Of a DNA stretch of 48,720 nt, positions 6,001 through 42,676 are shown piece after piece. How positions within the stretch are numbered: position 1 is the first letter of the stretch; the number at the start of each line of letters is the position of its first letter. Location: the NCBI GenBank assembly GCA_964399525.1, contig CAYNRF010000001.1:2125-50844 (forward strand), in the 5' to 3' direction. The translations under genes were made by a program, and so were the position numbers. This stretch comes from an uncultured Phycisphaeraceae bacterium. Lineage in GTDB: Bacteria; Planctomycetota; Phycisphaerae; Phycisphaerales; UBA1924. The notes beneath the pieces are model-generated. The model ran no database searches. It was given only the letters and a program-made list of their open reading frames with translations, and was not told the DNA's origin.

Positions 6001-6103
6001 GGTTCCCTCAATGCCGGTCAGACCGGCCTCATGCAGTGCGGCCGCTGGGCGGCCTCGTCCCTCAACGAGAGTCTAACGGAAAATCCCTCCCGAGGTCAAC
6101 CGA

Positions 6104-8173: not shown

Positions 8174-8341
8174 ATCGGCCCAAAGCTCGGTCGGAGGGGG
8201 CAAAATCAGCAGAGAAGTCTGGCGTTCGGAAACGAGTTTCGCTATCCTGAGAATCCTGTGGCATACTCCGCCCGTGGCGTGTGCCATGCAAGAGCAGGAC
8301 GGCGGGAAGCCGCCGGCACGTTTGTGATGAGGGAGTTCCAA

Positions 8342-14628: not shown

Positions 14629-14644
14629 GCGAGGGGGTTCGGAA

Positions 14645-14660
14645 GATTATAGAATATTCG
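14645..14660. promoter_or_regulatory. AT-only motif GATTATAGAATATTCG; candidate bidirectional -10 core in the 51-bp lysA/GH38 divergent gap
   Basis: The plus strand reads TAGAAT (14650-14655), 24 nt before the GH38 ATG. The minus strand reads TATAAT (14651-14646), 17 nt before the lysA ATG. The 12-mer TTATAGAATATT recurs at 25923-25934 on the minus strand. Confidence 0.4.
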
Positions 14661-22541: not shown

Positions 22542-23528
22542 TCAGCCCCCGTTGTTCGGCTCTTCCTCGTCCAGGCGCCGGTCTGCATTCGACCAGATGG
22601 CCTTGAAGGTGCTCAGGCCGGTGTTCTGGTTGAACAGCTCCTGCGCATCGATGGACTCGACGTGATTGTCGACGAACACGAAGTTGGCCCGCCCCTTGAG
22701 GCCGAAGGGCTGATCGCTCCTCCGCGGGTGGCGGTAATAGGGCAGGTAGGACTGCGGGGTGGGCCGGGCGCCGCTGCCGCGGTCGTACGAGCCCGCCTCG
22801 GGGGCGCGGAGATCGCGGGTGCCGAACGCGTTGCCGGGGAAGTCGTTGACGCCCTGACCGCCGCCGAAGCGCTCGCCCGGACGGCCCTGGGCGCCGACGG
22901 CCGAGTTGGTGAACCAACGCCATTCGCCGTTGATCTGGACGCCCGAGACGCCCCAGGCCTCGGTCAGCAGGAAGGTCTTGCCCGGCTCGTTGGCCGTGGT
23001 GTCCGTGAAGCCGACCCCGCCCGTGCCGGTGCTGAAGTTGGCCGTGTTGATGCGGTTGTAGCGGTGGGTGCGGTAGTCGCTGGCCGTGCTCCCGGGGGCG
23101 AGTGAGATGCCGGCGGAGGCGTAGTAGTTCATGGTGTAGGAACGTTCGCCGTCCGGATGGTTCGGGCAGACGAACACGCCGCCGCCCGCTGTCTGCGAGA
23201 TGGGGCTGTTGACGTCGTCGGCCTCGTTGCCGCCGAAGTCGGGCAGGTAGCTGCCGATGCGGGGGCGTTCGAACCAGTACACGCCCGGGTTGCCGTTCTC
23301 GTCCAGGCCCTCGTTGATGTTCGGCGGGAACTTGCCCTTCCAGTCGTTGGCGTACAGGATAAGCGCCTGTCCCAGCGAGCGGACGTTGGTCTGGCAGATC
23401 ACGTCCCGGGCGGTGTCGCGGGCGCGGCCGATGGCCGGCAGCAGGATGCCGATCAGCAGCGCGATGATCGCGATGACCACCAGCAGTTCGATGAGGGTGA
23501 ATGCGTGTCTTGTGCGGCTGCGGATCAT
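22542..23528 (-). CDS. DUF1559 family protein with prepilin-type N-terminal motif
   Basis: 328 aa. N-terminus [38 protein letters not shown]-terminal [15 protein letters not shown] block. The start overlaps the regulator stop (ATGA at 23525-23528). Confidence 0.9.
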
Positions 23529-24682
23529 GCTTTGACTCCTGCGGCGCGACGGGTGGTGACACGGCTTCCCTCTTCCGTGGCACGAGACGTCGATTCGCGG
23601 ATGATAAGTTCGGCGTCGAGCGTGCGACGCGACGGCGGATTCCCGGTTTTGACCTGGGACAGAAGTTCACGGATGGCGGCCTTGCCGACCTCCACGAGCG
23701 GCTGGCGCATGGTGGTCAGCGCGGGCGAGAGATGGACCGCGCTGGGTGGGTCGTCGACGCCCACGAGCGAGACATCGCCGGGGATGCTCAGGCCGGCCCG
23801 GCTGGCGGCGGTGTACATGTTCAGCGCGAAGTAGTACCCCGCGGCGAACACGGCGGTGGGCGCGTCGGGCGCGGACAGCAGCGCGGCCGCCTGGGTCAGC
23901 CCGGTCTCGTCGAGCTGCCAGCCCGGGGAGGACAGCTCCGGGCACGCGTCCGCGTCGAGCCCGAGACGCCGGCAGGCCCGGCGGTAGCCCGCCAGGCGGT
24001 CGATGTTGTTGGTCAGGTCGGTCTGTCCGCCGACGAAGGCGATGCGCCTGTGCCCGAGGTCGAAGAGGTGGCGCACCGCCGACTCGGCCAGCGCCACGTT
24101 GTCGGTATCGACGCACCCGATGGTCGGCACATCGGTCCGCGCGCCGACCACCATGGTCGGCTGCCGTCCCATGTCGTTGAGCGTCGGGCGCCGGCCGAAC
24201 CTGGGCGAGTGATCCAGCTGGGTCTTGTAGGGGTTGACGTAGAGGTATCCCTGGCACTCGTTGCGCCAGTCTTCCCCGTAGCGGAGCAGCACGATATCGG
24301 CGCCGATCTCCTCGGCCCCGCGGCGCACGCCCTCCATGATCTGTCCGTGGTACGAGTCGGCCAGCGACGCCTCGGTGTGGAACACGATCCCCACCCGCAT
24401 GGTCGAAGTCCGGTGCGAGGGCTCGGCGTAGGACTCGTGCACGAACGTGCCGCGCCCCTGCCCGCGACGCAGTACGCCGGCGGCGACCAGTTCCTGCAGG
24501 GCCCGGTGCACGGTGACGAGCGATACTTCGAGCGTGTCGGACAGAGCCTTGGTGCTGGGGATGCGCTCGCCGGGCCCGAAGACCCCGCGGTCGACCGCGT
24601 CGCGCACGGCATCCCGGACGAGTTCGTAGAGCGGGCGTCCTGGCTCTCCCCGAACGGGTTGCAACTCGGGTCTGGTCGTCAT
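23525..24682 (-). CDS. AraR-type transcriptional regulator (GntR winged-helix N-terminus plus LacI/PBP1 sugar-binding domain)
   Basis: 385 aa. The HTH is [65 protein letters not shown]. The C-terminal part has the periplasmic-binding-protein-like I fold pattern ([19 protein letters not shown]). Confidence 0.88.
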
Positions 24683-24687
24683 GAACT

Positions 24688-24715
24688 CCGGATCGGGCCG
24701 TCGGGCCCGATCCGG
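24688..24715 (-). terminator. Perfect 12-bp GC hairpin after the PEP-CTERM gene, abutting the regulator start
   Basis: On the minus strand: CCGGATCGGGCC-cgac-GGCCCGATCCGG, then AGTT, then ATG (24682). There is no U-tract. The 3' arm contributes the only GGAG near the start codon. Confidence 0.45.
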
Positions 24716-24731
24716 CGAAAAGTCGGAGATA

Positions 24732-25793
24732 TCAGCGGCGACGGCGGGCGGCCATCAGACCGGCCAGGCCCAGCAGGCCGGCGGCGCCGGGGGCGGGGAC
24801 CTGGAAGATGTGGACGTTGCGGTTGGCGAAGTCGAGCACGGCCAGGGTGCCGGAGGCGGCATCCCAGGAGAAGTCGTACCAGCCGTTGCCGTCGGCGAGC
24901 GTCCCGCCGCCGATCAGGTCGAGCGACAGCGAGAGGCTGTTGCCGTTCAGATCCGTGACCTTCAGGACGTTGGCGGCGGACTGACCGAGGCCGTTGCCGG
25001 TGCGATCGTTCCAGATCACGAAGTCACCGAAGGCGGAGTTGTCGACGTAGGCGACGTTCTGGCCGGCGATGAAGGCGCCGTTCTCGTTGTTCTCAACGAG
25101 CAGCGTCGCGACGCCGGAGTTCGCGCCGGTGCGGGTCAGCAGGGTGACGTCGTTGGACCGACGGGCCACCATGTTGCCGTTGGCGGCGAAGTCCATGTCA
25201 CGCCAGAACGAGCCCTGGAAGTCGGGGGTGATGATCATGCCGTTCTCGGGGGCCGAGTTGCCGAACACGTCGGCGCCGGTCTCGGTGTCCTGCAGGAAGC
25301 GGCGTCCCTGGCCGAAGGTGGTCCACGCCACGCCGGTGCCCTGGCCCTGGAAGCCCGAGTCGAACCCGACGCCGGAGCCGCCGCGGATGTTCTTGGCCCA
25401 CAGCACGCCGTTGGTGGTGGTGTCGAACACCTGCAGACCCTGGGCGTCGGCCGCGCCATCGTCGTAGGCGGCGGCGAGGCGGTTGCCGGAGATGTCCAGG
25501 CCGGAGAAGCCGCGGGCGCCGGGGGTGCCGGAGATGAACTGCATCAGCTCGAAGCTGCCGTTGGAGTAGCGGGCCACGCCCGTGCCGGTCGCGGCGGCGC
25601 CGTTGAACCCGGCGGCGAAGAGGTCGGTGCCGTTCCAGGCGATGGCCGACACGTTGGTGCCGATGAACGTCGAGCTCTGGTCGTTGTTCAGCGCGAACAG
25701 GTCGATCCGCTGGATCTCCCGCATGCTGATCTGGGCCGAGGCCGTCCCGGCGATCCCGGCGAGCAACAGAATGCCGATCATGGTGTTCTTCAT
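24732..25793 (-). CDS. Secreted protein with PEP-CTERM sorting signal; paralogue of the CDS at 37325-38680
   Basis: 353 aa from ATG 25793 (MKNTMIGILLLAGIAGTASAQ), with GGAGAG upstream. The C-terminus VPAPGAAGLLGLAGLMAARRRR gives the PEP-like motif, a TM helix and a basic tail. Tracked ORF 24732-26045 overruns the start. Confidence 0.85.
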   Translation of the reverse strand: MKNTMIGILLLAGIAGTASAQISMREIQRIDLFALNNDQSSTFIGTNVSAIAWNGTDLFAAGFNGAAATGTGVARYSNGSFELMQFISGTPGARGFSGLDISGNRLAAAYDDGAADAQGLQVFDTTTNGVLWAKNIRGGSGVGFDSGFQGQGTGVAWTTFGQGRRFLQDTETGADVFGNSAPENGMIITPDFQGSFWRDMDFAANGNMVARRSNDVTLLTRTGANSGVATLLVENNENGAFIAGQNVAYVDNSAFGDFVIWNDRTGNGLGQSAANVLKVTDLNGNSLSLSLDLIGGGTLADGNGWYDFSWDAASGTLAVLDFANRNVHIFQVPAPGAAGLLGLAGLMAARRRR

Positions 25794-25920
25794 CTCATCT
25801 CTCCAAATCGATGTGCGAGACCATCCCTCACAATGGGTGCAGAGCATCCGGGCCTCGTCGGCTGCTCTCCGATCCTCATCTACGAAAACCGCGCGAGCGG
25901 GGTCGCGGGCCAAGAGGACC

Positions 25921-25940
25921 ACTAATATTCTATAACAATC
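25921..25940 (-). promoter_or_regulatory. AT-only motif (minus strand GTTATAGAATATTAG), candidate promoter -10 for the PEP-CTERM gene
   Basis: It shares the 12-mer TTATAGAATATT with 14647-14658. On the minus strand the arrangement is TTGTGC-N18-TAGAAT. It lies about 130 nt upstream of ATG 25793. Confidence 0.4.
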
Positions 25941-26063
25941 CGGGATGGTTGCACAAGAGCCTTCCCGACTTCGTGAGGGAAAATCTCGGCCGAGGCGAGT
26001 GAAAGTACTTTCTTTGTCCCGGCAGGCACGACCCGGGGGCTTCACGGACCTCCGGGCGTCACC

Positions 26064-26990
26064 TTATCGGATTTCGGGCACCGCCACCCAGGCGCCGTCC
26101 TGGGCGATCGAGCGGTTGCCCGCCTCCATCACGGCGACGTTTTCCACAATGTCGCGCAGCGGCGCCGGGGGCTCTCCACCTTCGAAGAACCGGACCATGC
26201 CGGCCACGAGGCGGGTGTAGACGGGGGCGAAGTCGACCACGAACTGCTGGACCCCCTTCTCCCCGTGCACGGTCGCGCCGAAGGCCCAGGACGCCCTGCG
26301 ATCCATCCGGATCCGGACGTACCGGCCGTCCCGGTACTCCATGTCCAGCAGGTGGCGGTCCGGCATGGCGACGGCCGACACCCGCGCCACGCCCGCCCCT
26401 TGCCCGGAACGGCGGAAGATCGCGTCCACCATCTCGATCGAATGACACCCGTAGTGCCAGAGGTGCGGCATCATGTCCAGCAGTTCCCCGTTGCCGAACG
26501 CGTCGATCGCCACGATCGGTCCCAGCGCGGCGAAGTCGAGCTTCTCGATCTCCTCGACGAAACGCAGCGACGACGCGCTGTACGCCCGGGCATTGGCCGA
26601 GCGGGCCTTCTCCAGCAGCACCCGGGCCTGGTCCAGCGAGCAGGTCATCGGCTTGTCGATGTAGGTCGGCATGCCGCGATCGAGTGATGGGCTGGCCAGT
26701 TCGAGGTGCCGGTGACCGTTGATGTTCAGAACCATGACGCCATTGACCTTCGAGAGCAGCTCATCGATCGAGCCGACCTGCTGCGCCCCCAGTTCGATCG
26801 CGCGGGACTTCCAGGACTCGACATCCTTGCGGCTCTGCTCCGGGCCGTCGGGGTGCTGCCACTCGTGCTTGCCGGGGTCGAAGAAGTGCGTGACACGACA
26901 GGCGGTCCTGCCCGCGTCGTGCAACTCCTTGATGCGGCGGGTGAACTCGGGCAGGTGGGACGAGTCGATGCCGATGGCGCCGATGTTCAT
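26064..26990 (-). CDS. Gfo/Idh/MocA-family oxidoreductase (divergent N-terminal Rossmann motif)
   Basis: 308 aa. MNIGAIGIDSSHLPEF... and YIDKPMTCSL correspond to the family EKP-like motif. AGGAGA lies 8 nt upstream of the ATG. Confidence 0.8.
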   Translation of the reverse strand: MNIGAIGIDSSHLPEFTRRIKELHDAGRTACRVTHFFDPGKHEWQHPDGPEQSRKDVESWKSRAIELGAQQVGSIDELLSKVNGVMVLNINGHRHLELASPSLDRGMPTYIDKPMTCSLDQARVLLEKARSANARAYSASSLRFVEEIEKLDFAALGPIVAIDAFGNGELLDMMPHLWHYGCHSIEMVDAIFRRSGQGAGVARVSAVAMPDRHLLDMEYRDGRYVRIRMDRRASWAFGATVHGEKGVQQFVVDFAPVYTRLVAGMVRFFEGGEPPAPLRDIVENVAVMEAGNRSIAQDGAWVAVPEIR

Positions 26991-27112
26991 GACGGACGGT
27001 CTCCTGAGGGGGGCGATGCAGGGGTGTGGGGCCGGGGAACCGAAAGGTACTGGGGGATCTTGGAGATGATGGGGCGGCCGGCGAGGTTGGCAGTGGTGGG
27101 GTGGACGGGAGC

Positions 27113-27139
27113 GGGGGGCGGGGGGCGGGGGCGGGGGGG
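27113..27139 (+). repeat. G-quadruplex-type G-tract array (G6-C-G6-C-G5-C-G7) on the template strand of an operon spacer
   Basis: Read directly from the sequence: GGGGGGCGGGGGGCGGGGGCGGGGGGG. It lies inside the 163-nt spacer 26991-27153, which is strongly C-rich and G-poor on the transcribed (minus) sense. Confidence 0.7.
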
Positions 27140-27153
27140 AGTGACCGGGACGG

Positions 27154-28182
27154 CTACCACTTCGGTGTGACCGGGGATCCGGAGGCGGCGCTCTGACGCT
27201 CGGCCTCGATGAGCCGGGTCACCGCCAGGGCATCGTCGAGGGTGGGCAGGCCGTCGCGGGGACCGCCCGCGGCCGCGGCCACCACGGCGCGGGCCTGCAT
27301 GTCGTACCCGGACTCGGCCGGCAGCGGTGCAGGGGTCGCCTCGCCCCCCGCGTGCAAGGTCATCGCGGGGCTGCGTGAGGAGTCGAACGCGACGACGCCC
27401 CGTTCGAACTCGACCGTGAACGCCATGCGGAAGGGAAAGGACCGGTCGTTGAGCCAGCCGCCCTCGGTCTGGACGGCCGGGCCGCCCGCGTAGCACATCT
27501 GCGTGGCGATGTGGTGGTCGTCACCGATCGACCGGACGGAGTCGGGCCGGCCGAACAGCGACAGGGCGAAATCGGCGTCGTGCACGTGCAGATCGAAGAT
27601 CGCGCCGCCGCTGCGGGCCGGGTCCGCGTAGAAGTCGCCGGCCCAGGCCGGGGGGGCTCCCAGGCGTTCGAAACGGGCGTGCACGACGCGGCCGTAACGT
27701 TCGTCGGCGATCATCGACCGCAGGTCCGACCAGCCGGGCCAATGGCGCACGCACATCGCCGGGACGCAGAGAAGGTCGGTCCGCGCCGCCCGCTCGGCGA
27801 GCATGCGGATCGGCGGGAGGGTGACGGCGACGGGCTTCTCGACCAGCACGTGCTTGCCCGCGTCGAGCGCCCGCAGCGCCAGATCCACGTGGGAATCCGT
27901 GTGGGTGCAGATGCTCACCAGATGGATGGATCGGTCGGCGAGCAGTGCTTCCGGCTCGGCGTACCCGGCGACCTCGGCCGGGTCGAACAGGCGGTCTTCG
28001 GCGGCGCCGGGCCCGATGTTGCCCGCCCCGGTCGCCCGGCCCGTCCGTCGGTCCGGGTCCCGGTCGCAGACGGCGCGGAGCACGCAGGGCGAACCCGAGG
28101 CCGCGGCCGCCAAATAGGCCCGGGTGTGGGTCTGGCCCATGAAACCCATGCCGATCACGCCGATGCCGATGGTGCCGCTCAT
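27154..28182 (-). CDS. Gfo/Idh/MocA-family oxidoreductase
   Basis: 342 aa from ATG 28182 (MSGTIGIGVIGMGFMGQTHTRAY...HVLVEKPVA). The ATG overlaps the upstream TGA (ATGA at 28179-28182). Tracked ORF 27154-28887 overruns. Confidence 0.88.
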   Translation of the reverse strand: MSGTIGIGVIGMGFMGQTHTRAYLAAAASGSPCVLRAVCDRDPDRRTGRATGAGNIGPGAAEDRLFDPAEVAGYAEPEALLADRSIHLVSICTHTDSHVDLALRALDAGKHVLVEKPVAVTLPPIRMLAERAARTDLLCVPAMCVRHWPGWSDLRSMIADERYGRVVHARFERLGAPPAWAGDFYADPARSGGAIFDLHVHDADFALSLFGRPDSVRSIGDDHHIATQMCYAGGPAVQTEGGWLNDRSFPFRMAFTVEFERGVVAFDSSRSPAMTLHAGGEATPAPLPAESGYDMQARAVVAAAAGGPRDGLPTLDDALAVTRLIEAERQSAASGSPVTPKW

Positions 28183-29015
28183 GTGTGCTCGATCCATTCC
28201 ACGGACGAACGGACCAGCGCCGCGGCGGTCCGGACATCCTCGACCCGCTGCTCGCCCGCCTCCCGCTCGATCACCAGGTCGCAGTCGCTCAGACGCTGGC
28301 GGACGATGGCAAAGAAACGCGCCCAGTCCACCGCGCCGGTCCCCGCCGGGACTTCCCGGCCCCAGCTCCCCGGGACCGGCGTGTACAGGGCGTCCTTGAT
28401 GTGGATCTGCTCGACGCGCGGGGCGAGCTTGGTCAGCGCCTCGACCGGGTCGCCCATGTTGTACAGGATCATGTTGGCCGGATCGAAGTTGATGCCCACG
28501 GTGGGCCGGTCGAGCGCGTCGAGCGCTTCGAGCAGCGTGCCGGCGTCCTCCTGGCCCGTCTCCAGCGCCACGCGGACGCCGCAGCCGTGGAACACGTCCG
28601 CCAGATCCCGCAGGCGGTGGATCAGCTTGTCCCACTCCGGATCCTGGCGATCGTGGGGGATGAAGCCCGCGTGGAAGGTGACGAGGTTGACGCCGATGCG
28701 TGCCGCCAGCTCGGCGTCGCGTCGCGCCGCGGCCAGATTCTCGGGCCAGGTGCGGTCCGGGCGGACGCCGCCGGTCTCCCGGATGGTGTCGAGCGTGGAG
28801 TAGTCCTCTCCCGCGGTGGCCATCATGCCGGAGACGATCTCGATGCCGGCCCCGTCGAGCAGCGACACGGTTTCGATCTCGTCCCATTCACCGGTGCGCA
28901 CCGGGTCGAGGGCCAGCTGCACGGCGGAGAGGCCGCACTGCCTGATCTTGGCCACGAGATCGCCCGGCGAGGTCGGGCGCAGCGACCACGAGCACACGCC
29001 CAGCGCCGCGCTCAA
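28179..29015 (-). CDS. Sugar phosphate isomerase/epimerase (xylose-isomerase-like TIM barrel)
   Basis: About 278 aa. VNLVTFHAGF, RVALETGQE, GINFDPANM and IHIKDA are the metal-ligand blocks of the AP_endonuc_2 fold. The proposed TTG start at 29015 overlaps the nagB TGA (TTGA). The start is not certain. Confidence 0.8.
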   Translation of the reverse strand: MSAALGVCSWSLRPTSPGDLVAKIRQCGLSAVQLALDPVRTGEWDEIETVSLLDGAGIEIVSGMMATAGEDYSTLDTIRETGGVRPDRTWPENLAAARRDAELAARIGVNLVTFHAGFIPHDRQDPEWDKLIHRLRDLADVFHGCGVRVALETGQEDAGTLLEALDALDRPTVGINFDPANMILYNMGDPVEALTKLAPRVEQIHIKDALYTPVPGSWGREVPAGTGAVDWARFFAIVRQRLSDCDLVIEREAGEQRVEDVRTAAALVRSSVEWIEHT

Positions 29016-31054
29016 CGCCCGGCTCCCGTCTGGGCGAGGGGCTTGATCTCCGCGGCGGACGCGGCCTCGTCCAGCGATCCGTCGGCGGCGCTGGGCTTCC
29101 AGGTCACGAACCCTTCGATGGCCTGGTACTCGGGCAGGCCCAGGGCGTCGTAGAGCTCGGCGGTGGCCCGGTTGCGATCCTCGGCCCGTTCCCAGAACTC
29201 TCGCGGGTCGTTGGGGCCCGGGAACAGAGCGCGGTCCTTCTGGCTCTGGTGCTTGAAGATCGCCATGCGCTTGCGGTCCACCTCGTCGGGCGACAGGGGC
29301 ACCGCCATCTCGATGTCCTCGGCGCCCCATTCCTGCCACGCGCCGCGGTACAGCCACACGGTGCAGTCCTTCATCCACGCCTCGTCACGCAGCCGGTGCA
29401 GCGCCGTGGTGATCGCCGCCAGGCACACCCGGTGCGTTCCGTGCGGGTCGGACAGATCGCCCGCCGCGTAGACCTGATGGGGCTTGACGCTGCGCAGCAG
29501 GTCCGTCACGATCCGGATATCGTCCTCGCCCAGCGGCTTCTTCTTGACCTTGCCGGTCTCGTAGAAGGGCATGTCCAGGAAGTGGATGTTCTCCGCCTTG
29601 ACGCCCGAGTACTTCGCGCCCGCGCGTGCCTCGGCCCGCCGGATCAGGCCCTTGATGGTCTGGATCTCGGCCGAGTCGACCTCGCCGGGCTCCTTGTCGC
29701 GGATGAAGTCCTGCACGCGACCGGTCAGCGCCGTGATCTGTTCGACCGCAATTCCCAAAGCGTTGGAGAGCTCCTGGGTAAAGTCGGCGAACTTGGCGGC
29801 TTCGTCGTCGAAGACGGCGATGTTGCCGCTGGTCTGGTAGGCGACGTGCACCTCGTGCCCCTGGTCGCACAGGCGGATGAAGGTGCCGCCCATCGAGATG
29901 ACGTCGTCGTCGGGGTGCGGGCTGAACACGATCACCCGCTTGGGGAACACGTCGTCGGTCCGCGTGTCGTCGATGCCCTTGCCGGGGACGAACATCGGAC
30001 GCCCCGGCTTGCCGCCGGGCCAGCCGGTGATGGTTTTCTGGAGGTTCTTGAACACCTCGATGTTCACCTGATACGCCCCGCCGCGCGCGGCGACCAGCTC
30101 CTGCAGTCCGTGCTCGTTGTAGTCCTCGTTGGTCAGCTTGAGGATGGGCTTCTTGAGCGAGCGCGCCAGCCAGATCACCGCCCGCTTGACGAGCCGGGCG
30201 TCCTCCCACGAATGGCCGAACCGCTTGACCGGGCCGAGCAGCCAGGGGGTCTTGAAGCGGGTCAGTTCCGCCGCGGCCGCCTCGTCGAGCACGAAGCGGG
30301 CGTTGGGATGCTCCTGGAGGAACGAGGCGGCGACCGTGTTGGTGATCTCGCCCTCGACCGCGCGGCGGACGATCGGCGCCTTGTGCTCGCCGAAGGCCAT
30401 CAGCACCACCCGCTTGGCATCGAGGATGGAGCCCACACCCATGGTGATCGCCTGGTGCGGCACGTTCCACTCGCCGAAGAAGTCGCTGGCCGCGTCCATC
30501 CGCGTGACCTTGTCCAGCGTGATCAGGCGGGTGCGGCTGTCCTTGCTCGAGCCGGGCTCGTTGAAGCCGACGTGGCCCGTCCGGCCGATGCCCAGCAGCT
30601 GCAGGTCCAGACCGCCGGCATCAGCGATCGCCTTCTCGTAGCGCTCGCAGTACGCGTCGACATCGTCACGCGGGATCGTGCCGTCGGGCACGTGGGCGTT
30701 CTTCGGGTCAATGTCCACGTGGTCGAACAGGTGCTCGCGCATGAAGCGGCGGTAGCTCTGCAGCTCGTCCGGGCCCATCGGCCAGTACTCGTCGAGGTTG
30801 AAGCTGATCACGTCGCGGAACGACAGCCCTTCCTCGCGGTGCAGCCGGACCAGTTCGTCGTAGACGGCCTGGGGGGTCGACCCGGTCGCCAGACCCAGCA
30901 CGGTCTTCTCGCCGCGGGCGGACTTGGCGCGGATCAGCTCGGCGATCTCGCGGGCCACGGCCCGCGAGGCGGAGCTGGAAGAGGCATAAACGGTGACGGG
31001 GACGCGCTCGGGGGCGTGCCCGGTCGCGTGTGCGGCGTGGTCAGATCCGATCAC
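29012..31054 (-). CDS. nagB: Glucosamine-6-phosphate deaminase (NagB) fused to an LmbE/PIG-L-type N-deacetylase domain
   Basis: 680 aa. The N-terminal half has VLGLATGSTP, FNLDEY and LLGIGRTGHVGFNEPGS (NagB). The C-terminal half has VIVFSPHPDDDVISMGGT...HEVHVAYQTSG (PIG-L/LmbE zinc deacetylase motif). Confidence 0.9.
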   Translation of the reverse strand: MIGSDHAAHATGHAPERVPVTVYASSSSASRAVAREIAELIRAKSARGEKTVLGLATGSTPQAVYDELVRLHREEGLSFRDVISFNLDEYWPMGPDELQSYRRFMREHLFDHVDIDPKNAHVPDGTIPRDDVDAYCERYEKAIADAGGLDLQLLGIGRTGHVGFNEPGSSKDSRTRLITLDKVTRMDAASDFFGEWNVPHQAITMGVGSILDAKRVVLMAFGEHKAPIVRRAVEGEITNTVAASFLQEHPNARFVLDEAAAAELTRFKTPWLLGPVKRFGHSWEDARLVKRAVIWLARSLKKPILKLTNEDYNEHGLQELVAARGGAYQVNIEVFKNLQKTITGWPGGKPGRPMFVPGKGIDDTRTDDVFPKRVIVFSPHPDDDVISMGGTFIRLCDQGHEVHVAYQTSGNIAVFDDEAAKFADFTQELSNALGIAVEQITALTGRVQDFIRDKEPGEVDSAEIQTIKGLIRRAEARAGAKYSGVKAENIHFLDMPFYETGKVKKKPLGEDDIRIVTDLLRSVKPHQVYAAGDLSDPHGTHRVCLAAITTALHRLRDEAWMKDCTVWLYRGAWQEWGAEDIEMAVPLSPDEVDRKRMAIFKHQSQKDRALFPGPNDPREFWERAEDRNRATAELYDALGLPEYQAIEGFVTWKPSAADGSLDEAASAAEIKPLAQTGAGR

Positions 31055-31176
31055 GGGTCTCTCCCTCGGAGACGGTGTCAGAACCCGGCGGGCGCGATGC
31101 CTTGGGTAAAATCCCCGCGTCCAACTTCTTGGTCACGGGGCTTCTTCGGATCGGGGAGGGATTGCACCGATCCTCG

Positions 31177-31196
31177 AAAGATTATATAACCTTACT
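31177..31196 (-). promoter_or_regulatory. AT-only motif (minus strand GGTTATATAATCTTTCG), candidate internal promoter -10 for nagB
   Basis: It contains TATAAT. It overlaps the stop codon (TAA, 31182-31184) of the upstream Gfo gene. It matches 37250-37265 at 14 of 16 positions. It lies about 125 nt upstream of ATG 31054. Confidence 0.35.
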
Positions 31197-32189
31197 GGCT
31201 CGGGCGGCGTTGTCAACCGCCTCGGCCGCACCAAGCCCGTCCCGGGCGTCTGCCAGGTCTCCGCGGGGCGTCTCCCCGCGGGCGGCCCTGGCAAAGTGGG
31301 CAAGCTGTCGGGAGAAGCGGACCTCGTGAGACTCGACCTGGATCACCTCGGGCTGCCCGATGCCGGGCCGGTACACCAGCTCGGTGGGCTTCATGTAGTC
31401 GTAGTGCAGGGAGCCGTTGGTGCCGATCAGGTCGACGGTGAACCGCTCGGGCTCGAGCCATCCGGCCAGGATGACCCCGGCCACACCGGCGTGCTTGCCT
31501 TCCGAGGCCTTGACCAGCACGGTGGCGCTCGATTCGCCTCGCCCGTTCCAGTCGTAGTCGTACACCGAACCGACCACCTCGGCCGGGCCGACCAGGTAAC
31601 GGAACAGGTCCAGCGAGTGGCAGCCGGTGTCGATGAACGAGCCGCCCCCGGACACGGCCGGATCGGACATCCACCGCTCGGCCATGGGCGGGTGGTGGAA
31701 CGCGAAGGCGTTCTCGAACCGCGAGAGACGCCCGATCTTGCCGGACGCGACCAGCTTCTTCATCTCCACGATGGGCGGCGCGAAGCGGTGGCAGTAGGCG
31801 ATGCCGAACAGCGTCGCGGGGTGCGCGTCGGCGATCTCGACGATGCGGGCGGCATCCTCGGGGTTCGACGCCAGCGGCTTTTCGGCCAGCACCGCGATGC
31901 CGCGCTGCAGGGCGTGGCGGATCGGCTCGACCCGGACGGTGGGGGGGGTGCAAAGCACCACGCCGTCCAGCTTCAGGTCGCCCCCGTCGACCGCCCGGAA
32001 CAGGTCGTCCGTCGAGGCGAACGCCTTGGCGCCGTGCTGCTCGGCGAGTTTGGCGGCGGCCTGCGCGTTCGGATCGACGACGGCGACGATCCGCACGAGG
32101 CCGCCCGAGTCCTTGGCGGCCGCCGAGTGGGCGTTGGAAATGCCTCCGGCACCGATGACGCCGAGGGCGAAAGATCCGTTGTTGCTCAT
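31182..32189 (-). CDS. Gfo/Idh/MocA-family oxidoreductase
   Basis: 335 aa. Motifs LGVIGAGGISNAH, VLCTPP and AVLAEKPLA. Confidence 0.9.
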   Translation of the reverse strand: MSNNGSFALGVIGAGGISNAHSAAAKDSGGLVRIVAVVDPNAQAAAKLAEQHGAKAFASTDDLFRAVDGGDLKLDGVVLCTPPTVRVEPIRHALQRGIAVLAEKPLASNPEDAARIVEIADAHPATLFGIAYCHRFAPPIVEMKKLVASGKIGRLSRFENAFAFHHPPMAERWMSDPAVSGGGSFIDTGCHSLDLFRYLVGPAEVVGSVYDYDWNGRGESSATVLVKASEGKHAGVAGVILAGWLEPERFTVDLIGTNGSLHYDYMKPTELVYRPGIGQPEVIQVESHEVRFSRQLAHFARAARGETPRGDLADARDGLGAAEAVDNAARASKVI

Positions 32190-32272
32190 GTCTTACACCA
32201 TCCGGGCGATGCCCGGTGTCAGAACTCCTCCGCGGAAGGCCGATGCCCCCGCCGTGCTTGAAGGGTAGACGC

Positions 32273-33769
32273 ATGCTGGACCGATTCGTCAAGTTGATGT
32301 TCCTGGCCGCCTGCCTGGCGGCCCCCGCGGGTTGCGGGGCCCCGGCCCGGGCCGAGTCGCCCGCTCCCCCGACCGCGCCCGCCGAGGTCCGGGGCGTGTG
32401 GCTGACCACCACCGCCAACGACCACATCGCCAGCGAGGCCGACACGGCCCGGACCATGCGCCGCCTCCGCGAGATCGGCCTGAACACCGTCTACGTGGAA
32501 GCGTGGAAGAACGGCTACACGCAGTACCCCTCCGAGGTCCTCCGCCGGGTGATCGGCGTGGACCGCCGACCCGCGCTCATCAAACAGGATCCCGGCGACC
32601 CCGACCGCGCCGTCGAGGCCCGCGATCTGCTGGGCGAGACGGTGCTCGAAGCGCATCGCAACGGGCTGCTGATCATCGGCTGGTTCGAGTACGGCTTCAT
32701 GGCCGCCCACAAGGACACCCAGAACCACCTGCGCGAGATGTACCCGCACTGGCTCAGCCGGGACAAGGACGGCAACGAGGTGGCCCCCAACGGCTTCGTC
32801 TGGATGAACCCGCTTCACCCGGAAACGCGCCGCCTGCTCCTCGATCTGATCCTCGAGGCCGTGGACCGGTACGACCTGGACGGCGTGCAGCTCGACGACC
32901 GGATCGTCTGGCCCTACTACACGATGGGGTACGACGACTTCACGGTGGCCTGGTACCGCAACGAGCACGCCGGGGCGGCCCCGCCCGCCGACCCGCGGGA
33001 TCCGGAGTGGATGCGCTGGCGTGCGGACAAGGTCAACGAGTACGCCCGCCAGTTCGTCCGAGAACTCCGCGAAGCGCGGCCCGGCCTGATCGTCTCGCTC
33101 AGCCCCGCGCCCTATCCGTGGTGCTGGGAGAACTATCTGCTCGAGTGGCCCAAGTGGGCGGCCTGGCAGCCGGGAAACGACAAGAACATGTGGTGGGATG
33201 AGTTCATCCCCCAGTGCTACCGCTACAGCTGGCCGGCGTTCAAGGCGACCTGGGATCAGCAGGTCGGGAACCTCCGGGACGCGGGGGCCGAAAACAGGGT
33301 CAAGGACATGCTCGCCGGGGTGCTGACCACCGGCAGCCAGCCCGACCCGGTGCCCTGGGAAGACCTGCGTCAGTCCGTCGAGTACGTGCGCGCCACCGGC
33401 GGCGGGGGCCACGTGTGGTGGTTCAGCCGTGGTGTGCTGGACGTCTATCCCAACGAGATGGCTGCGTTTTATGACGTTGAATCCCGTGGTCGGGCGCCGC
33501 ATCCGATGCGTCCCGCCGACTGGCGACCGGCCCCGATCGTGATCGAGGGCCGCCCGGACGGGGCGGTGCATGTCTTCCCCATGCGGGATGTCCCCCCGGG
33601 CCGCTACCGCGTCATCCGGCATGCCGCGGACGGGCCCGCGGCGGACGACACCTGGTCGATCGATGTCCGGCCCGGAGCCGCCGACATCCGCCTGCCACGC
33701 AGCGTCGAGCGGATCGAGCTGCTGGCCGATCGCCGCCCGGCCATGATGAGTTATCCGCCCAGTCCGTGA
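32273..33769 (+). CDS. GHL10 (PF02638/DUF187; YngK/DigH-like) glycosyl hydrolase lipoprotein
   Basis: Start ATG 32273 (MLDRFVKLMFLAACLAAPAGC lipobox). VRGVWLTT...LREIGLNTVYVEAWKNGYTQYPS and DGVQLDDRIVWP are typical of the GHL10 TIM barrel. Confidence 0.85.
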   Translation: MLDRFVKLMFLAACLAAPAGCGAPARAESPAPPTAPAEVRGVWLTTTANDHIASEADTARTMRRLREIGLNTVYVEAWKNGYTQYPSEVLRRVIGVDRRPALIKQDPGDPDRAVEARDLLGETVLEAHRNGLLIIGWFEYGFMAAHKDTQNHLREMYPHWLSRDKDGNEVAPNGFVWMNPLHPETRRLLLDLILEAVDRYDLDGVQLDDRIVWPYYTMGYDDFTVAWYRNEHAGAAPPADPRDPEWMRWRADKVNEYARQFVRELREARPGLIVSLSPAPYPWCWENYLLEWPKWAAWQPGNDKNMWWDEFIPQCYRYSWPAFKATWDQQVGNLRDAGAENRVKDMLAGVLTTGSQPDPVPWEDLRQSVEYVRATGGGGHVWWFSRGVLDVYPNEMAAFYDVESRGRAPHPMRPADWRPAPIVIEGRPDGAVHVFPMRDVPPGRYRVIRHAADGPAADDTWSIDVRPGAADIRLPRSVERIELLADRRPAMMSYPPSP

Positions 33770-33823
33770 GCCATCCGCCCGATGAGGACCGAACGCAACA
33801 CCGAACCGACCCGAGAGGCCCCG

Positions 33824-36256: not shown

Positions 36257-36282
36257 ATCCTGATCAGAAAGGCCTGGCGCGC

Positions 36283-37161
36283 GTGACCACCCTGGGCATC
36301 GACATCGGCGGCACCGCCGTCAAGGCCGCGGTCCTCGCCGCGGACGGCGCCGCGACGACCTCGGTCAGCGATCCCTACACGCGACCGGACCGCGCCGTGC
36401 TGCGGGCCGCCGTGCGCGACGCGGTCGCCCGGCTCGATCCGTCCGGGATCCGCGCGGTGGGGCTGTGCGTGCCCGGGCGGCGATGCGCCGCGGGCACGCA
36501 CGTGGAACTCGCGCTGAACGTCCCCGGGCTCGAGCGGTACCCGTTCACGGAGATCGTGTCCGACGCCATCGGACGCAAGGCGCCGGTGCGGGTGTGCAGC
36601 GACGCGCAGGCGGCCACCACCGACGCGGCTCGCGACCATCCGAACGCCCGGCGGGTGCTGGGGATCGCCATCGGCACCGGCGTGGGGGCCAGCCTTCTCG
36701 AGCACGGCCGCCCGCTGCGGCTGGGCGAGTGCACCATCGGGCTCCTCGGCCAGATCGATGTCGGCCGGCCCGACGGGGTGGATCCTCCGGGCCCGATCGG
36801 CCCCGACGGCGGGCGGAACTCGCTGGAGGCCTATCTGGGCGTCGCGGCGCTGCGCGGGCGGTTCGGGACGGACTTCGCGGCGGCGCTGCCGGACCTGCCC
36901 GCGTCCGATCCGGCGCTGCTGGCGCTGGCGCGGGCGATCCGGATTGCGCTGGCGGTGTACACCCCGGACCTTGTGCTGATCCTCGGCGGCCTCGGGCTGG
37001 CCCTGCGGGCCCACGCTGAACCGCTCGAGGCCATGGTCCGTACCGATCTGACGAGCATCGCGCCGCGTGGCTGGGCTTTGGCATTCGGCCGATCGCGTTT
37101 CCATGCGGCCGTTGGTGCGGCCCGGATGGCAGTGGATTTCTCGGACACGGAGCCGAAATAG
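36283..37161 (+). CDS. ROK/ASKHA-fold sugar kinase-like protein (polyphosphate-glucokinase-like, lacks the Cys-rich zinc motif)
   Basis: 292 aa from GTG 36283. LGIDIGGTAVKAAV (phosphate-1), GLCVPG and LGIAIGTGVGASL are present. No CxCGxxGC motif is visible. Confidence 0.6.
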   Translation: MTTLGIDIGGTAVKAAVLAADGAATTSVSDPYTRPDRAVLRAAVRDAVARLDPSGIRAVGLCVPGRRCAAGTHVELALNVPGLERYPFTEIVSDAIGRKAPVRVCSDAQAATTDAARDHPNARRVLGIAIGTGVGASLLEHGRPLRLGECTIGLLGQIDVGRPDGVDPPGPIGPDGGRNSLEAYLGVAALRGRFGTDFAAALPDLPASDPALLALARAIRIALAVYTPDLVLILGGLGLALRAHAEPLEAMVRTDLTSIAPRGWALAFGRSRFHAAVGAARMAVDFSDTEPK

Positions 37162-37246
37162 AAAATGCTTTCGTGGTTCCGATCGTGTTCCGGTCCACGA
37201 TTTCGACGGCTCCTGCCCCGATTTTCCCCTTCCGACCAAGGGAAAT

Positions 37247-37264
37247 AAGTTATATAATCATTCC
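37247..37264 (+). promoter_or_regulatory. AT-only motif AAGTTATATAATCATTCC, candidate promoter -10 for the GC-dockerin paralogue
   Basis: TATAAT at 37253-37258, with TTCCGA 17 nt upstream. It lies about 65 nt upstream of ATG 37325. The inverted repeat TTTCCC/GGGAAA (37223-37245) sits immediately upstream. Confidence 0.4.
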
Positions 37265-37324
37265 AGCGGAGTCCGGCGCGAGCCGGGCACGCTCCATCAG
37301 CAAGATCAGAGGGAGACCGGACTC

Positions 37325-38680: not shown

Positions 38681-38707
38681 GCCCCGCTCTGATCCGCGTG
38701 TTTCCTC

Positions 38708-38740
38708 GGCCGCCCCGGGCTCTGCCCGGGGCGGCCTTTT
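38708..38740 (+). terminator. Rho-independent terminator
   Basis: GGCCGCCCCGGG-CTCTG-CCCGGGGCGGCC (12-bp perfect stem) followed by TTTT. It abuts the stop of the convergent symporter gene. Confidence 0.65.
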
Positions 38741-42609: not shown

Positions 42610-42676
42610 CGATCCTGAGCCTCCCTCTGCATCGGCGTTGTTCGCGCCGCTGTCCCGAGAAGATCGGGCGATCGCG

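What the first reader, a model, noticed from the sequence alone, without database searches (positions are those of the whole stretch)
24732..25793. Same passenger domain, two anchors: the PEP-CTERM protein is a paralogue of the GC-dockerin protein at 37325-38680
Seen in sequence, four collinear conserved blocks (24732 protein / 37325 protein):
- TFIGTNVSAIAWNGTDLFAAGF / TFFIGNNPSSIAFDGTDLYVGGF
- FWRDMDFAANGNMVARRSNDVTLLTR / LWRDLDIDPNTGDMAARAANILIIATR
- AFIAGQNVAYVDNSAFGDFVIWNDR / PFVSGQNVAILHGLEGGDLVIYNNR
- GWYDFSWDAASGTLAVLDFANRNVHIF / GYYDFAWDEASQTLCILDFAARDVYVL

Immediately after the last block the two proteins diverge. One ends in a PEP-CTERM signal (VPAPGAAGLLGLAGLMAARRRR) and the other in the GC-type dockerin module.

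Both genes are preceded by the AT-only promoter-like motif (25921-25940 and 37247-37264).

Established: PEP-CTERM implies exosortase-dependent processing.

Inference:
- This is a 'choice-of-anchor' situation.
- It argues that the GC-dockerin tail is functionally an alternative cell-surface attachment device.
- The shared domain has no function I can recognise and appears to be an important surface module.
Basis: partly seen in the sequence, partly recalled or inferred. Interest (0 to 1): 0.65.

Follow-up and report, generated by a model that had tools for sequence, protein, structure and literature searches.

The report
Surface beta-propeller paralogues with swapped anchors
Two genes in one sugar-utilisation locus of an uncultured Phycisphaerales (Planctomycetota) bacterium encode the same unannotated six-bladed beta-propeller, one with a PEP-CTERM-like membrane tail and one with a "GC-type dockerin" tail; this is a real but fairly ordinary example of a secreted domain carried on interchangeable C-terminal attachment modules.

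Summary
Protein A (24732-25793, minus strand) and protein B (37325-38680, plus strand) are paralogues: BLASTP E=2e-33, 30% identity from the signal peptide to the last shared block.

The shared domain is a six-bladed, velcro-closed beta-propeller (AF2 pLDDT 92.7). It matches no Pfam, NCBIfam or PDB-sequence family. It defines a family of about 700 clusters at 50% identity, and every named member is from Planctomycetota. The propeller is nearly always N-terminal, followed by variable tails:
- VPAP- or VPEP-type PEP-CTERM;
- dockerin-like repeats plus PEP-CTERM;
- GC-type dockerin;
- two other beta-rich domains of about 130 aa;
- PATR repeats.

A and B belong to one conserved amino-sugar locus (GHL10, NAGPA-GHL10-dockerin, NagB/PIG-L, ROK kinase, GntR regulator, ABC transporter, pseudopilin-like protein). 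One metagenomic protein fuses GHL10 to the propeller.

My best reading is that both are substrate-binding or accessory surface subunits of this glycan-utilisation system, attached in different ways.

Caveats:
- A's tail is below the curated PEP-CTERM cutoff (P-A-P instead of P-E-P).
- No exosortase could be looked for.
- The anchoring role of the GC-dockerin is untested. Its terminal Cys looks like half of an internal disulfide.
- The AT-rich motif is a general -10-like element of the locus.

Verdict: a new member of a known kind, of moderate interest.

The parts
24732..25793 (-). Gene A: secreted propeller protein with a PEP-CTERM-like tail (353 aa plus stop)
   Evidence: ORF and translation; GC3 0.88; orthologues at 45-94% identity start at the same Met
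25734..25793 (-). A signal peptide (aa 1-20, MKNTMIGILLLAGIAGTASA|Q); no lipobox Cys
   Evidence: Read from the sequence; modelled as an N-terminal helix with low pLDDT
24801..25733 (-). A six-bladed beta-propeller domain (aa ~21-331); the N-terminal strand 21-31 closes blade 6
   Evidence: AF2 pLDDT 92.7, pTM 0.90, 24 strands in 6 groups of 4; Foldseek finds only generic propellers; no Pfam or PDB sequence hit
24735..24800 (-). A tail VPAPGAAGLLGLAGLMAARRRR: P-x-P motif, Gly/Ala/Leu-rich transmembrane helix, terminal RRRR (a lineage variant of PEP-CTERM)
   Evidence: TIGR02595 10.6 bits, below the cutoff of 16; modelled as helix 337-352; the same [VI]P[AST]PG...ARRRR tail occurs on orthologues and on unrelated ~250-aa proteins in other Phycisphaerales loci
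37325..38680 (+). Gene B: paralogous propeller protein with a GC-type dockerin tail (451 aa plus stop)
   Evidence: orthologues at 65-88% identity
37391..38482 (+). B propeller domain (aa ~23-386). It is the same fold as A, with about 52 extra residues in the loops of blades 1-3
   Evidence: AF2 pLDDT 83.6, with lower confidence in the inserted loops; the family's conserved Arg/Asp/Asn/Tyr positions are retained
38483..38677 (+). B tail. A Cys-rich linker (PFSDPACPCDSPANINC) is followed by two EF-hand-like dockerin repeats (DGQLNFFDVSAFIQLYN and NNDGLFNFFDVSTFIGVFN) and ends in GCP
   Evidence: NF041540 aa 400-450, 40.3 bits against a cutoff of 29; two helices at 409-420 and 436-448 in the model
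25920..25940 (-). AT-rich -10-like element GTTATAGAATATTAG, about 130 nt upstream of the A start codon
   Evidence: conserved at -109 to -184 upstream of A orthologues in 9 of 11 Phycisphaerales loci
37241..37263 (+). AT-rich -10-like element AGTTATATAATCATT, about 65 nt upstream of the B start codon
38708..38736 (+). Intrinsic-terminator-like hairpin (13 G-C pairs followed by TTTT) just after B
23525..24682 (-). GntR-HTH / periplasmic-binding-fold regulator directly downstream of A; this adjacency is conserved
   Evidence: Pfam; synteny
32159..36256 (+). Secreted GHL10 protein, then a NAGPA-GHL10 protein with dockerin/EF-hand repeats. Both lie upstream of B in the same orientation
   Evidence: Pfam; sequences; conserved next to B-type and A-type genes
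36283..37161 (+). ROK-family sugar kinase immediately upstream of B
   Evidence: conserved upstream of B orthologues
26064..32192 (-). Block upstream of A: GFO/IDH/MocA oxidoreductases, a xylose-isomerase-like TIM-barrel protein, and a glucosamine-6-phosphate deaminase-like/PIG-L fusion
   Evidence: Pfam; NF002557 1021 bits; conserved order in L001, L003 and L010-L020

Best explanation
A and B are two paralogous secreted proteins of one conserved glycan (amino-sugar polymer) utilisation locus, about 25-30 kb long, in an uncultured Phycisphaerales bacterium.

Shown:
- Each has a Sec signal peptide and the same six-bladed beta-propeller, followed by a different C-terminal module.
- The propeller family is known only from Planctomycetota so far, has no annotation, and is used as an N-terminal head on many tail types.
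- Both paralogues keep the same set of conserved Arg/Asp/Asn/Tyr residues.
- The genes are syntenic with GHL10 and NAGPA enzymes and with amino-sugar catabolic genes, across two classes of the phylum. One protein fuses GHL10 to the propeller.

Inferred:
- The propeller is a single-site ligand-binding head, less likely a catalytic one, for an anionic amino-sugar-containing polymer handled by the neighbouring GHL10/NAGPA enzymes.
- A is first held in the cytoplasmic membrane by its P-x-P / transmembrane / RRRR tail. It is then cleaved and passed outward by an exosortase-type enzyme.
- B is positioned non-covalently through its disulfide-clamped, Ca-binding dockerin-like module. This could place it alongside the NAGPA-GHL10 enzyme of the same operon, which carries EF-hand/dockerin repeats of a different (non-GC) type.
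- The two copies therefore put the same binding activity at two different places or attachments in the cell envelope.
For: Paralogy: E=2e-33.

Fold:
- AF2 pLDDT is 92.7 for A and 83.6 for B.
- Foldseek returns only generic WD40/NHL propellers at TM 0.45-0.67.
- There is no Pfam, NCBIfam or PDB sequence match to the propeller.

Family:
- The profile search finds 694 clusters at 50% identity with E<=1e-3, and the propeller is nearly always at residues ~22-335.
- Every named source is Planctomycetota.

Tail swapping.

Conserved site:
- The conserved residues are R94, D111, R137, D145, R198, R211, N214, R221, N262, R264, Y306/D307 and D321.
- B keeps all of them.
- By the DSSP strand map, 11 of these 12 positions lie at the start of A-strands or in D-A and B-C loops, the usual ligand face of propellers (inference).

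Locus:
- A-type genes are flanked by the GntR/PBP regulator, a pseudopilin-like protein, an SBP with permeases, FAD_oxidored (PF12831), GFO oxidoreductases, NagB/PIG-L, GHL10 and NAGPA-GHL10.
- B-type genes follow GHL10, NAGPA-GHL10 and ROK.
- The Botrimarina locus has GHL10 x2, AnmK, two tandem propellers, a pseudopilin-like protein and FAD_oxidored.
- GHL10 or NAGPA lies within 10 kb in 19 of 33 species-level loci.
- P0252 is signal peptide-GHL10-Golvesin_C-propeller with no internal signal peptide.
- GHL10 has a characterised member, Cwp19, a peptidoglycan lytic transglycosylase (PMC6016235).
- The window also holds a NagB-like protein (1021 bits) and a weak, far sub-threshold AmpD-like amidase match (36 bits against a cutoff of 143).

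Tails:
- NF041540 is above its cutoff for B.
- The VPAP...RRRR tail recurs on unrelated proteins in sister genomes. This fits the lineage-specific PEP-CTERM variation described in PMC1569441.
Against: - No ligand, activity or localisation has been measured for any family member.
- A's tail fails the curated PEP-CTERM thresholds, and the presence of an exosortase is unknown.
- No cohesin-like partner for the GC-dockerin is known, and no paper on the module was found.
- The more distant family members (L024, L026, L029-L033, L036-L042) show no detectable homologues of the window's locus genes nearby, so the GHL10 link is not universal.
- GHL10 substrates are not uniform; another member is reported to act on starch (PMC9967864, listed).
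- Conserved charged residues at a propeller's central face fit an enzyme as well as a binder.
- The mapping of conserved residues to the top face comes from strand order, not from coordinates.
Confidence: 0.55

Rival explanations
1. The two tails are not equivalent anchors but send the same domain to different compartments. A stays tethered to the cytoplasmic membrane and faces the enlarged planctomycetal periplasm, where whole polysaccharides are taken up. B is released, or joins a soluble or outer multi-enzyme assembly through its dockerin.
For: - A's tail is a plain transmembrane helix plus RRRR and scores below the PEP-CTERM cutoff.
- Planctomycetes import intact dextran into the periplasm (PMC5394234).
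In L018 both lie within 10 kb. This suggests non-redundant roles.
- Dockerin-like repeats co-occur with PEP-CTERM in the same protein in Pirellulales, so a dockerin is not simply a replacement for the membrane tail.
Against: - The P-x-P motif is strictly conserved next to the transmembrane helix across the lineage, including on unrelated proteins. That points to a recognition site for processing rather than a mere anchor.
- The PEP-CTERM literature argues for cleavage and export (PMC1569441).
Confidence: 0.25
2. The propeller is an enzyme (for example a lyase, hydrolase or esterase acting on an anionic amino-sugar polymer) rather than a binding module.
For: - The blades are not sequence repeats.
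- Conservation is concentrated in one set of Arg/Asp/Asn/Tyr residues, which is more like a single active site than a multivalent lectin.
- The domain is fused to, and clustered with, glycoside-hydrolase-like domains.
Against: - There is no structural or sequence similarity to any known propeller enzyme family. The top Foldseek hits are scaffolding WD40/NHL domains at 9-15% identity, and the PDB profile search is empty.
- The domain is used as a head on long PATR or dockerin stalks, as adhesins and binders are.
Confidence: 0.25
3. These are generic adhesin or biofilm-matrix proteins, and their position in the sugar locus has no functional meaning.
For: - PEP-CTERM proteins are historically linked to exopolysaccharide and biofilm (PMC1569441).
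- Distant family members lack the locus context.
- PATR-repeat and long-stalk architectures exist.
Against: - Gene order is conserved down to 45% protein identity and across Phycisphaerae and Pirellulales.
- A GHL10-propeller fusion exists.
- The same conserved promoter-like element sits in front of the propeller genes and two sugar genes of the locus.
Confidence: 0.1

Closest known systems
NCBIfam/CDD 'choice-of-anchor' domain families, e.g. choice-of-anchor I (PF22494), described as part of a seven-bladed barrel in MSP130 proteins (PMC11878542)
   Same: A secreted, uncharacterised, propeller-like passenger domain whose homologues carry different C-terminal sorting or anchoring modules. One GC-dockerin protein found here even carries PF22494 (P0234).
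   Different: There is no sequence relationship. None of 72 family members hits PF22494 or any choice-of-anchor model, and hhalign of the family profile against P0234 aligns only the dockerin tail. This family has six blades, and its named members are all from Planctomycetota.
PEP-CTERM / exosortase (EpsH) sorting system (TIGR02595, PF07589; PMC1569441)
   Same: A's tail is C-terminal and follows a signal-peptide-bearing, otherwise unannotated passenger. It has the tripartite layout: a Pro-containing motif, a hydrophobic helix of about 14 residues, and a basic cluster. The tail is nearly identical among proteins of the lineage.
   Different: The motif is P-A-P (also P-T-P and P-S-P in relatives), not P-E-P. 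HMM scores are below the curated cutoffs. The exosortase partner was not verified.
GC-type dockerin domain (NCBIfam NF041540) and clostridial type I dockerins (PF00404)
   Same: B's tail passes the NF041540 cutoff. It has two EF-hand-like loops, each followed by a helix. Like dockerins it sits at the C-terminus of many different secreted enzymes, including S8, M10 and trypsin-like peptidases, amylase and FG-GAP proteins.
   Different: B does not hit PF00404. The module is bracketed by a Cys pair at a fixed spacing of 53 residues and ends in GCP. No cohesin partner is known, and no publication on the module was found. 'Anchored' is the model's name, not a tested property.
Surface glycan-binding proteins of Bacteroidota polysaccharide utilisation loci (SusE/F-like SGBPs); comparison from my own knowledge
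   Same: Non-catalytic (inferred) surface-attached proteins encoded next to glycoside hydrolases, transporters and a sugar-sensing regulator, often as paralogous pairs.
   Different: The fold differs (propeller rather than Ig-like or beta-sandwich). The attachment differs (PEP-CTERM-like or dockerin rather than lipoprotein). The uptake machinery differs (ABC/SSF transporters and pseudopilin-like proteins rather than SusC/D). Binding is not shown.
Cwp19 of Clostridioides difficile (GHL10 catalytic domain plus CWB2 wall anchors; PMC6016235)
   Same: A GHL10 enzyme held at the cell surface by a C-terminal anchoring module. It gives a biochemical precedent (peptidoglycan lytic transglycosylase) for the enzyme family that is genomically and physically linked to this propeller.
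   Different: Cwp19 has no propeller. The link to peptidoglycan in Planctomycetota is only suggested by the AnmK, AmpD-like amidase and NagB neighbours.

Membership tests
PEP-CTERM sorting domain (TIGR02595 / PF07589) | HMM score at or above the curated cutoff | tested here: not met
   TIGR02595 scores 10.6 bits against a cutoff of 16. There is no PF07589 hit at E<=1. Canonical VPEP relatives in the family do hit PF07589: 27 of 72 members.
PEP-CTERM sorting domain (TIGR02595 / PF07589) | Pro-Glu-Pro motif immediately before the transmembrane helix | tested here: not met
   A has V-P-A-P. Phycisphaerales orthologues have P-A-P, P-T-P or P-S-P, and Pirellulales orthologues have P-E-P.
PEP-CTERM sorting domain (TIGR02595 / PF07589) | Extreme C-terminal position, hydrophobic helix of about 14 residues, terminal basic cluster, N-terminal signal peptide | tested here: met
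   GAAGLLGLAGLMAA followed by RRRR-stop; signal peptide MKNTMIGILLLAGIAGTASA; helix 337-352 in the model.
PEP-CTERM sorting domain (TIGR02595 / PF07589) | Many instances per genome on unrelated passengers | tested here: inconclusive
   There is only one instance in this 48.7-kb window. The same tail is found on unrelated ~250-aa proteins in L003 and L008. The whole genome was not available.
PEP-CTERM sorting domain (TIGR02595 / PF07589) | Co-occurring exosortase (EpsH/Xrt) gene | not testable with these tools
   No gene in the window or in any fetched locus gave an exosortase Pfam hit.
GC-type dockerin (NCBIfam NF041540) | HMM score above the curated cutoff, at the extreme C-terminus, ending in GC(P) | tested here: met
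   40.3 bits against 29, aa 400-450 of 451, ending ...NQGCP. Two other window proteins also pass.
GC-type dockerin (NCBIfam NF041540) | Two EF-hand-like loop-helix repeats | tested here: met
   Loops NINCDGQLNFFD and DFNNDGLFNFFD have D/N at positions 1, 3, 5, 9 and 12. Helices at 409-420 and 436-448.
GC-type dockerin (NCBIfam NF041540) | Actually anchors the protein to the cell (binding partner, localisation) | not testable with these tools
   No literature was found and no cohesin candidate was identified.
Existing 'choice-of-anchor' families (NCBIfam/Pfam, e.g. PF22494) | Homologous passenger domain found with alternative C-terminal sorting or anchor modules | tested here: met
   At least six tail architectures follow the same propeller boundary.
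Existing 'choice-of-anchor' families (NCBIfam/Pfam, e.g. PF22494) | Sequence match to one of the curated models | tested here: not met
   The propeller has no NCBIfam or Pfam hit. hhalign against a PF22494 protein aligns only the tail.
Six-bladed beta-propellers (NHL/WD40-like folds) | Predicted fold: six four-stranded blades with velcro closure | tested here: met
   DSSP strand map of a model with pLDDT 92.7. Foldseek probability is 1.0 to WD40 and NHL propellers; the best target-normalised TM-score is 0.67, for the Brat NHL domain.
Six-bladed beta-propellers (NHL/WD40-like folds) | Sequence membership in NHL, WD40, PD40 or other repeat families | tested here: not met
   Among 72 members there is only one PD40 hit and one WD40 hit, both at E>0.05. 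The PDB profile search gives 0 hits.

The most novel reading that the evidence does not exclude
The propeller paralogues are the substrate-capture subunits of a cell-surface, cellulosome-like assembly found in Planctomycetota, which scavenges anionic amino-sugar polymers (peptidoglycan or GlcNAc-phosphate glycans). In this reading the Cys-clamped GC-type dockerin is a new docking and sorting system with an undiscovered receptor. It brings enzymes (the many GC-dockerin-tagged hydrolases, and possibly NAGPA-GHL10 through its own non-GC dockerin repeats) and binders together, while the PEP-CTERM-variant copy is covalently passed to the envelope by an exosortase.
Probability: 0.15. Interest if true: 0.75.

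Novelty: new member of a known kind. Interest (0 to 1): 0.42.

Why it matters
How Planctomycetota capture and import polymers is poorly understood, and they lack the SusC/D-type loci that explain this in Bacteroidota. This work defines an unannotated propeller family known only from this phylum. The family is genomically, and once physically, tied to GHL10/NAGPA enzymes and amino-sugar catabolism, which gives a concrete candidate for a surface glycan-binding component. It also offers a natural tail-swap series for testing what the uncharacterised GC-type dockerin and the VPAP variant of PEP-CTERM actually do: the same head is found with PEP-CTERM, dockerin plus PEP-CTERM, GC-dockerin and other tails. 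The concept itself, one passenger with alternative anchors, is already established, so the gain is a new family and a testable functional context rather than a new principle.

Tried and rejected
- Chance similarity: rejected (E=2e-33).
- Membership of the propeller in a known family: Pfam on A and B, Pfam on 72 members, NCBIfam, a PDB sequence profile and hhalign against a choice-of-anchor I protein were all negative. Foldseek against the PDB gave only generic propellers, and no sialidase, lactonase or lectin ranked in the top 50.
- The AT-rich motif as a specific link between A and B: rejected, because there are four sites in the window. The sigma-70 two-hexamer scan found nothing in 24000-39000, so the element is only -10-like.
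- B-type as the orthologue of the Pirellulales 'long' dockerin-plus-PEP-CTERM paralogues: rejected. Those score 160-270 bits to A-types but only about 100 to B, so the duplications are independent or B is fast-evolving.
- The terminal GC as a covalent attachment site: considered unlikely, because the terminal Cys is paired with a Cys exactly 53 residues upstream in 79 of 95 tails.
- Exosortase: no gene in the window or fetched loci, and the literature searches gave no statement for Phycisphaerae. This is unresolved.
- The first genome-collection scan, using the broad alignment, failed for lack of a conserved stretch. It was repeated with a narrower alignment.
- Rfam on the whole window found only a tRNA.
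- The search with the ~140-aa 'type v' tail returned only short proteins or fragments, so its status as a sorting module stays open.
Full report
**1. The observation**

The two ORFs are as described.
- Protein A is window 24732-25793 on the minus strand (353 aa).
- Protein B is window 37325-38680 on the plus strand (451 aa).
- The window is 69% G+C, so long spurious ORFs overlap both genes. The annotated frames have GC3 of 0.86-0.88 and start at the same Met as their orthologues.
- BLASTP of A against B gives E=2e-33, with 30% identity over 390 columns. The alignment is collinear from the signal peptides to '...NRNVHIFQ / ...ARDVYVLR'.
- In a 72-sequence alignment the homology ends at exactly that column. 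A continues with 22 residues (VPAPGAAGLLGLAGLMAARRRR) and B with 65 residues ending NQGCP.

The paralogy and the sharp break point are therefore real.

**2. The tails**

- B's tail matches NCBIfam NF041540 ('GC-type dockerin domain-anchored protein') above the curated cutoff (40.3 bits against 29).
- A's tail reaches only 10.6 bits against the TIGR02595 cutoff of 16, and has no Pfam PEP-CTERM hit.
- A's tail still has the tripartite layout that defines PEP-CTERM in the founding paper: a Pro-containing motif, a hydrophobic helix of about 14 residues, and a basic cluster (PMC1569441). The motif is P-A-P instead of P-E-P.
- Phycisphaerales orthologues, and two unrelated ~250-aa proteins in sister genomes, carry nearly the same [VI]P[AST]PG...GLAGL..ARRRR tail. 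Pirellulales orthologues carry canonical VPEP tails.

I read A's tail as a lineage variant of PEP-CTERM. Membership by the curated models fails, and the exosortase partner could not be checked.

**3. The shared domain**

- AlphaFold2 with the family alignment gives a confident model of A (pLDDT 92.7, pTM 0.90). It has 24 strands in six four-stranded blades, and the N-terminal strand (residues 21-31) completes the last blade in a velcro closure.
- B gives the same propeller with about 52 extra loop residues, followed by two helices for the dockerin (pLDDT 83.6).
- Foldseek against the PDB returns only generic WD40 and NHL propellers, at 9-15% identity and TM 0.45-0.67.
- Nothing in Pfam or NCBIfam matches the propeller in A, B or any of 72 relatives. 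Only the tails hit.
- A profile search of PDB sequences is empty.
- hhalign against a choice-of-anchor I protein aligns only the dockerin.

**4. The family**

- A profile of the propeller alone, searched against 1.84 billion representative proteins, finds 694 clusters at E<=1e-3 and 223 at E<=1e-30. The propeller is almost always at residues ~22-335.
- Every named source is Planctomycetota: Phycisphaerales, Botrimarina, Posidoniimonas, Lacipirellulaceae and Isosphaeraceae-like MAGs.
- The closest species-level genomes are Phycisphaerales MAGs at 79-83% identity, which places the window in that order.

The tails after the fixed boundary include:
- VPAP-type PEP-CTERM;
- canonical VPEP PEP-CTERM;
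- dockerin-like repeats followed by PEP-CTERM;
- GC-type dockerins and related dockerins with a Cys at or near the end;
- two kinds of beta-rich domain of about 130-140 aa;
- PATR repeats plus PEP-CTERM;
- larger fusions.

This is a textbook 'choice-of-anchor' pattern. The idea is already embodied in curated domain names, for example choice-of-anchor I, a seven-bladed barrel in MSP130 proteins (PMC11878542).

**5. Context**

A and B are not scattered paralogues. They sit 11.5 kb apart in one locus.

- Downstream of A (same strand): a GntR-HTH/periplasmic-binding-fold regulator, a prepilin-type N-methyl/DUF1559 protein, a solute-binding protein with permeases, and a PF12831 FAD oxidoreductase.
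- Upstream of A: GFO/IDH/MocA oxidoreductases, a xylose-isomerase-like TIM-barrel protein, and a glucosamine-6-phosphate deaminase-like/PIG-L fusion (NF002557, 1021 bits).
- Then, divergently: a secreted GHL10 protein, a NAGPA-GHL10 protein with dockerin/EF-hand repeats, a ROK kinase, and B. B is followed by a strong terminator.

This order is conserved widely.
- It holds around A-type genes down to 45% identity and around B-type genes.
- In Botrimarina (class Planctomycetia) two tandem propeller paralogues lie between GHL10 x2/AnmK and the pseudopilin-like, FAD-oxidoreductase, TIM-barrel and GFO genes.
- Of 33 species-level loci, 19 have GHL10 or NAGPA within 10 kb. One (L018) has B-type and A-type copies in the same 10 kb.
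- One metagenomic protein (P0252) is signal peptide-GHL10-Golvesin_C-propeller-tail, with no vestigial signal peptide at the junction. It is a true fusion.

The only GHL10 enzyme whose activity I read about is Cwp19, a peptidoglycan lytic transglycosylase (PMC6016235). Together with AnmK, a weak sub-threshold AmpD-like amidase match, NagB and a GlcNAc/ManNAc-type kinase, this points to an amino-sugar polymer as substrate, possibly peptidoglycan or a GlcNAc-phosphate glycan. That step is inference, and another GHL10 is reported to act on starch.

**6. Mechanism**

- Conserved polar residues are R94, D111, R137, D145, R198, R211, N214, R221, N262, R264, Y306/D307 and D321. B retains all of them.
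- By the strand map, 11 of these 12 positions fall at the start of A-strands or in D-A and B-C loops, the face that binds ligands in most propellers. This is topology-based inference, not measured on coordinates.
- The blades are not sequence repeats. I therefore expect one central, Arg-rich site suited to an anionic sugar, rather than a multivalent lectin.

I commit to the following model. Both proteins are exported by Sec and display the same binding head. A is processed through its PEP-CTERM-like tail. B is held non-covalently through its dockerin-like module, and the NAGPA-GHL10 enzyme of its operon carries dockerin/EF-hand repeats of a different, non-GC type. My confidence in each step is:
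- paralogy: about 1.0;
- propeller fold: about 0.95;
- extracytoplasmic location: about 0.85;
- functional link to the sugar locus: about 0.7;
- binder rather than enzyme: about 0.55;
- both tails acting as surface anchors: about 0.45.

**7.

- Dockerin-like repeats and PEP-CTERM occur together in many family members, so the two are not simply interchangeable.
- In 96 unrelated proteins that share only the tail, 95 end in GC(x). In 79 of those 95 the nearest upstream Cys is exactly 53 residues before the terminal Cys, usually within CPADL. This fixed bracket suggests an intramodule disulfide clamp rather than a covalent attachment site.
- No cohesin-like partner and no publication on the module were found.

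Two facts do fit a localisation or assembly tag. The module decorates many secreted hydrolases (S8, M10 and trypsin-like peptidases, amylase, FG-GAP proteins). Three proteins in this window pass the NF041540 cutoff.

**8. The AT-rich motif**

- TTATA[G/T]AAT occurs four times in the window, always intergenic and pointing at a downstream gene of this locus: GH38 mannosidase, A, NagB/PIG-L and B.
- GTTATAGAATAT is conserved 109-184 nt upstream of A orthologues in 9 of 11 Phycisphaerales loci, including orthologues at 50-59% protein identity.
- It looks like a -10 element. No -35/-10 pair is detected.
- It is shared by the locus, not private to A and B.

**9. Verdict**

The novelty is limited: alternative anchors on one passenger, PEP-CTERM and the GC-type dockerin are all known concepts or curated models.

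What is new:
- an unannotated six-bladed propeller family, known so far only from Planctomycetota;
- its conserved pairing with GHL10/NAGPA amino-sugar loci;
- the Cys-bracket feature of the GC-dockerin.

I classify it as a new member of a known kind, with interest of about 0.4.

Noticed in passing
window 14642-14659 (+), 25920-25940 (-), 31174-31189 (-), 37241-37263 (+); also L010-L020 upstream of the propeller gene: An AT-only element TTATA[G/T]AAT stands out in 69% G+C DNA. It occurs four times in the window, each time intergenic and oriented towards a gene of the same sugar locus. GTTATAGAATAT is conserved at -109 to -184 in 9 of 11 Phycisphaerales orthologous loci. It is probably the -10 box of co-regulated promoters.
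   Followed up: partly
window 8174-10399 (+) and 46173-47039 (+): Two further secreted proteins (741 and 288 aa as stop-to-stop ORFs) have no Pfam domain and end in GC-type dockerins (NF041540, 37.0 and 37.8 bits). Their second repeat is the degenerate 'ADxAAPFGxFNFFD' form rather than a canonical EF-hand loop.
   Followed up: partly
P0144-P0239 (tail-only hits): GC-type dockerin modules are bracketed by two Cys residues at a fixed spacing. The nearest upstream Cys is exactly 53 residues before the terminal Cys in 79 of 95 tails, typically CPADL...GCP. This suggests a disulfide clamp joining the ends of the module.
   Followed up: partly
window 33770-36256 (+): A NAGPA (phosphodiester glycosidase) plus GHL10 two-domain protein with an N-terminal signal/anchor and three EF-hand/dockerin-like loops in its C-terminal 200 residues. 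It does not end in GC. It is conserved next to the propeller genes.
   Followed up: partly
P0077, P0047, P0070, P0075 etc. (tails); P0371-P0480: A C-terminal domain of about 140 aa, ending ...W[YF]RD...TSNF[TS]DG..V.F, replaces the anchor in many family members from marine 'Planctomycetota bacterium' MAGs. It recurs on short proteins and with FG-GAP, Endonuclease_1 and LamG passengers (110 hits). A second tail of about 130 aa, ending ...SNGVQL.IP, behaves similarly. Either could be an undescribed sorting or attachment domain.
   Followed up: partly
P0252 (970 aa, metagenomic): A single polypeptide combines a signal peptide, GHL10, Golvesin_C, this propeller and a tail of about 130 aa. It is a Rosetta-stone fusion linking the propeller to GHL10.
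   Followed up: yes
L007 8001-10748 (Botrimarina hoheduenensis Pla111); L021, L025, L028: Pirellulales carry tandem propeller paralogues: a short one with PEP-CTERM and a long one with dockerin-like repeats plus PEP-CTERM. By bit scores the long forms are not orthologues of the Phycisphaerales B type, so short/long pairs arose more than once.
   Followed up: partly
window 4963-6072 (-) and 22542-23666 (-): Two prepilin-type N-methyl (DUF1559/SBP_bac_10-like) proteins lie next to sugar ABC-transporter genes. The one at 22542-23666 is a conserved neighbour of the propeller/GntR pair.
   Followed up: no
window 45802-45890 (+): A tRNA gene, the only Rfam match in the window (57.4 bits).
   Followed up: no
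window 11885-14646 (-) and 41452-44662 (-): Two similar gene pairs occur in the window, each a HGSNAT/DUF5009-like membrane acetyltransferase next to a PLP-dependent Orn/Arg decarboxylase. The second pair is followed by a deoxyhypusine-synthase-like gene (44617-45747). This points to a duplicated polyamine-related module.
   Followed up: no
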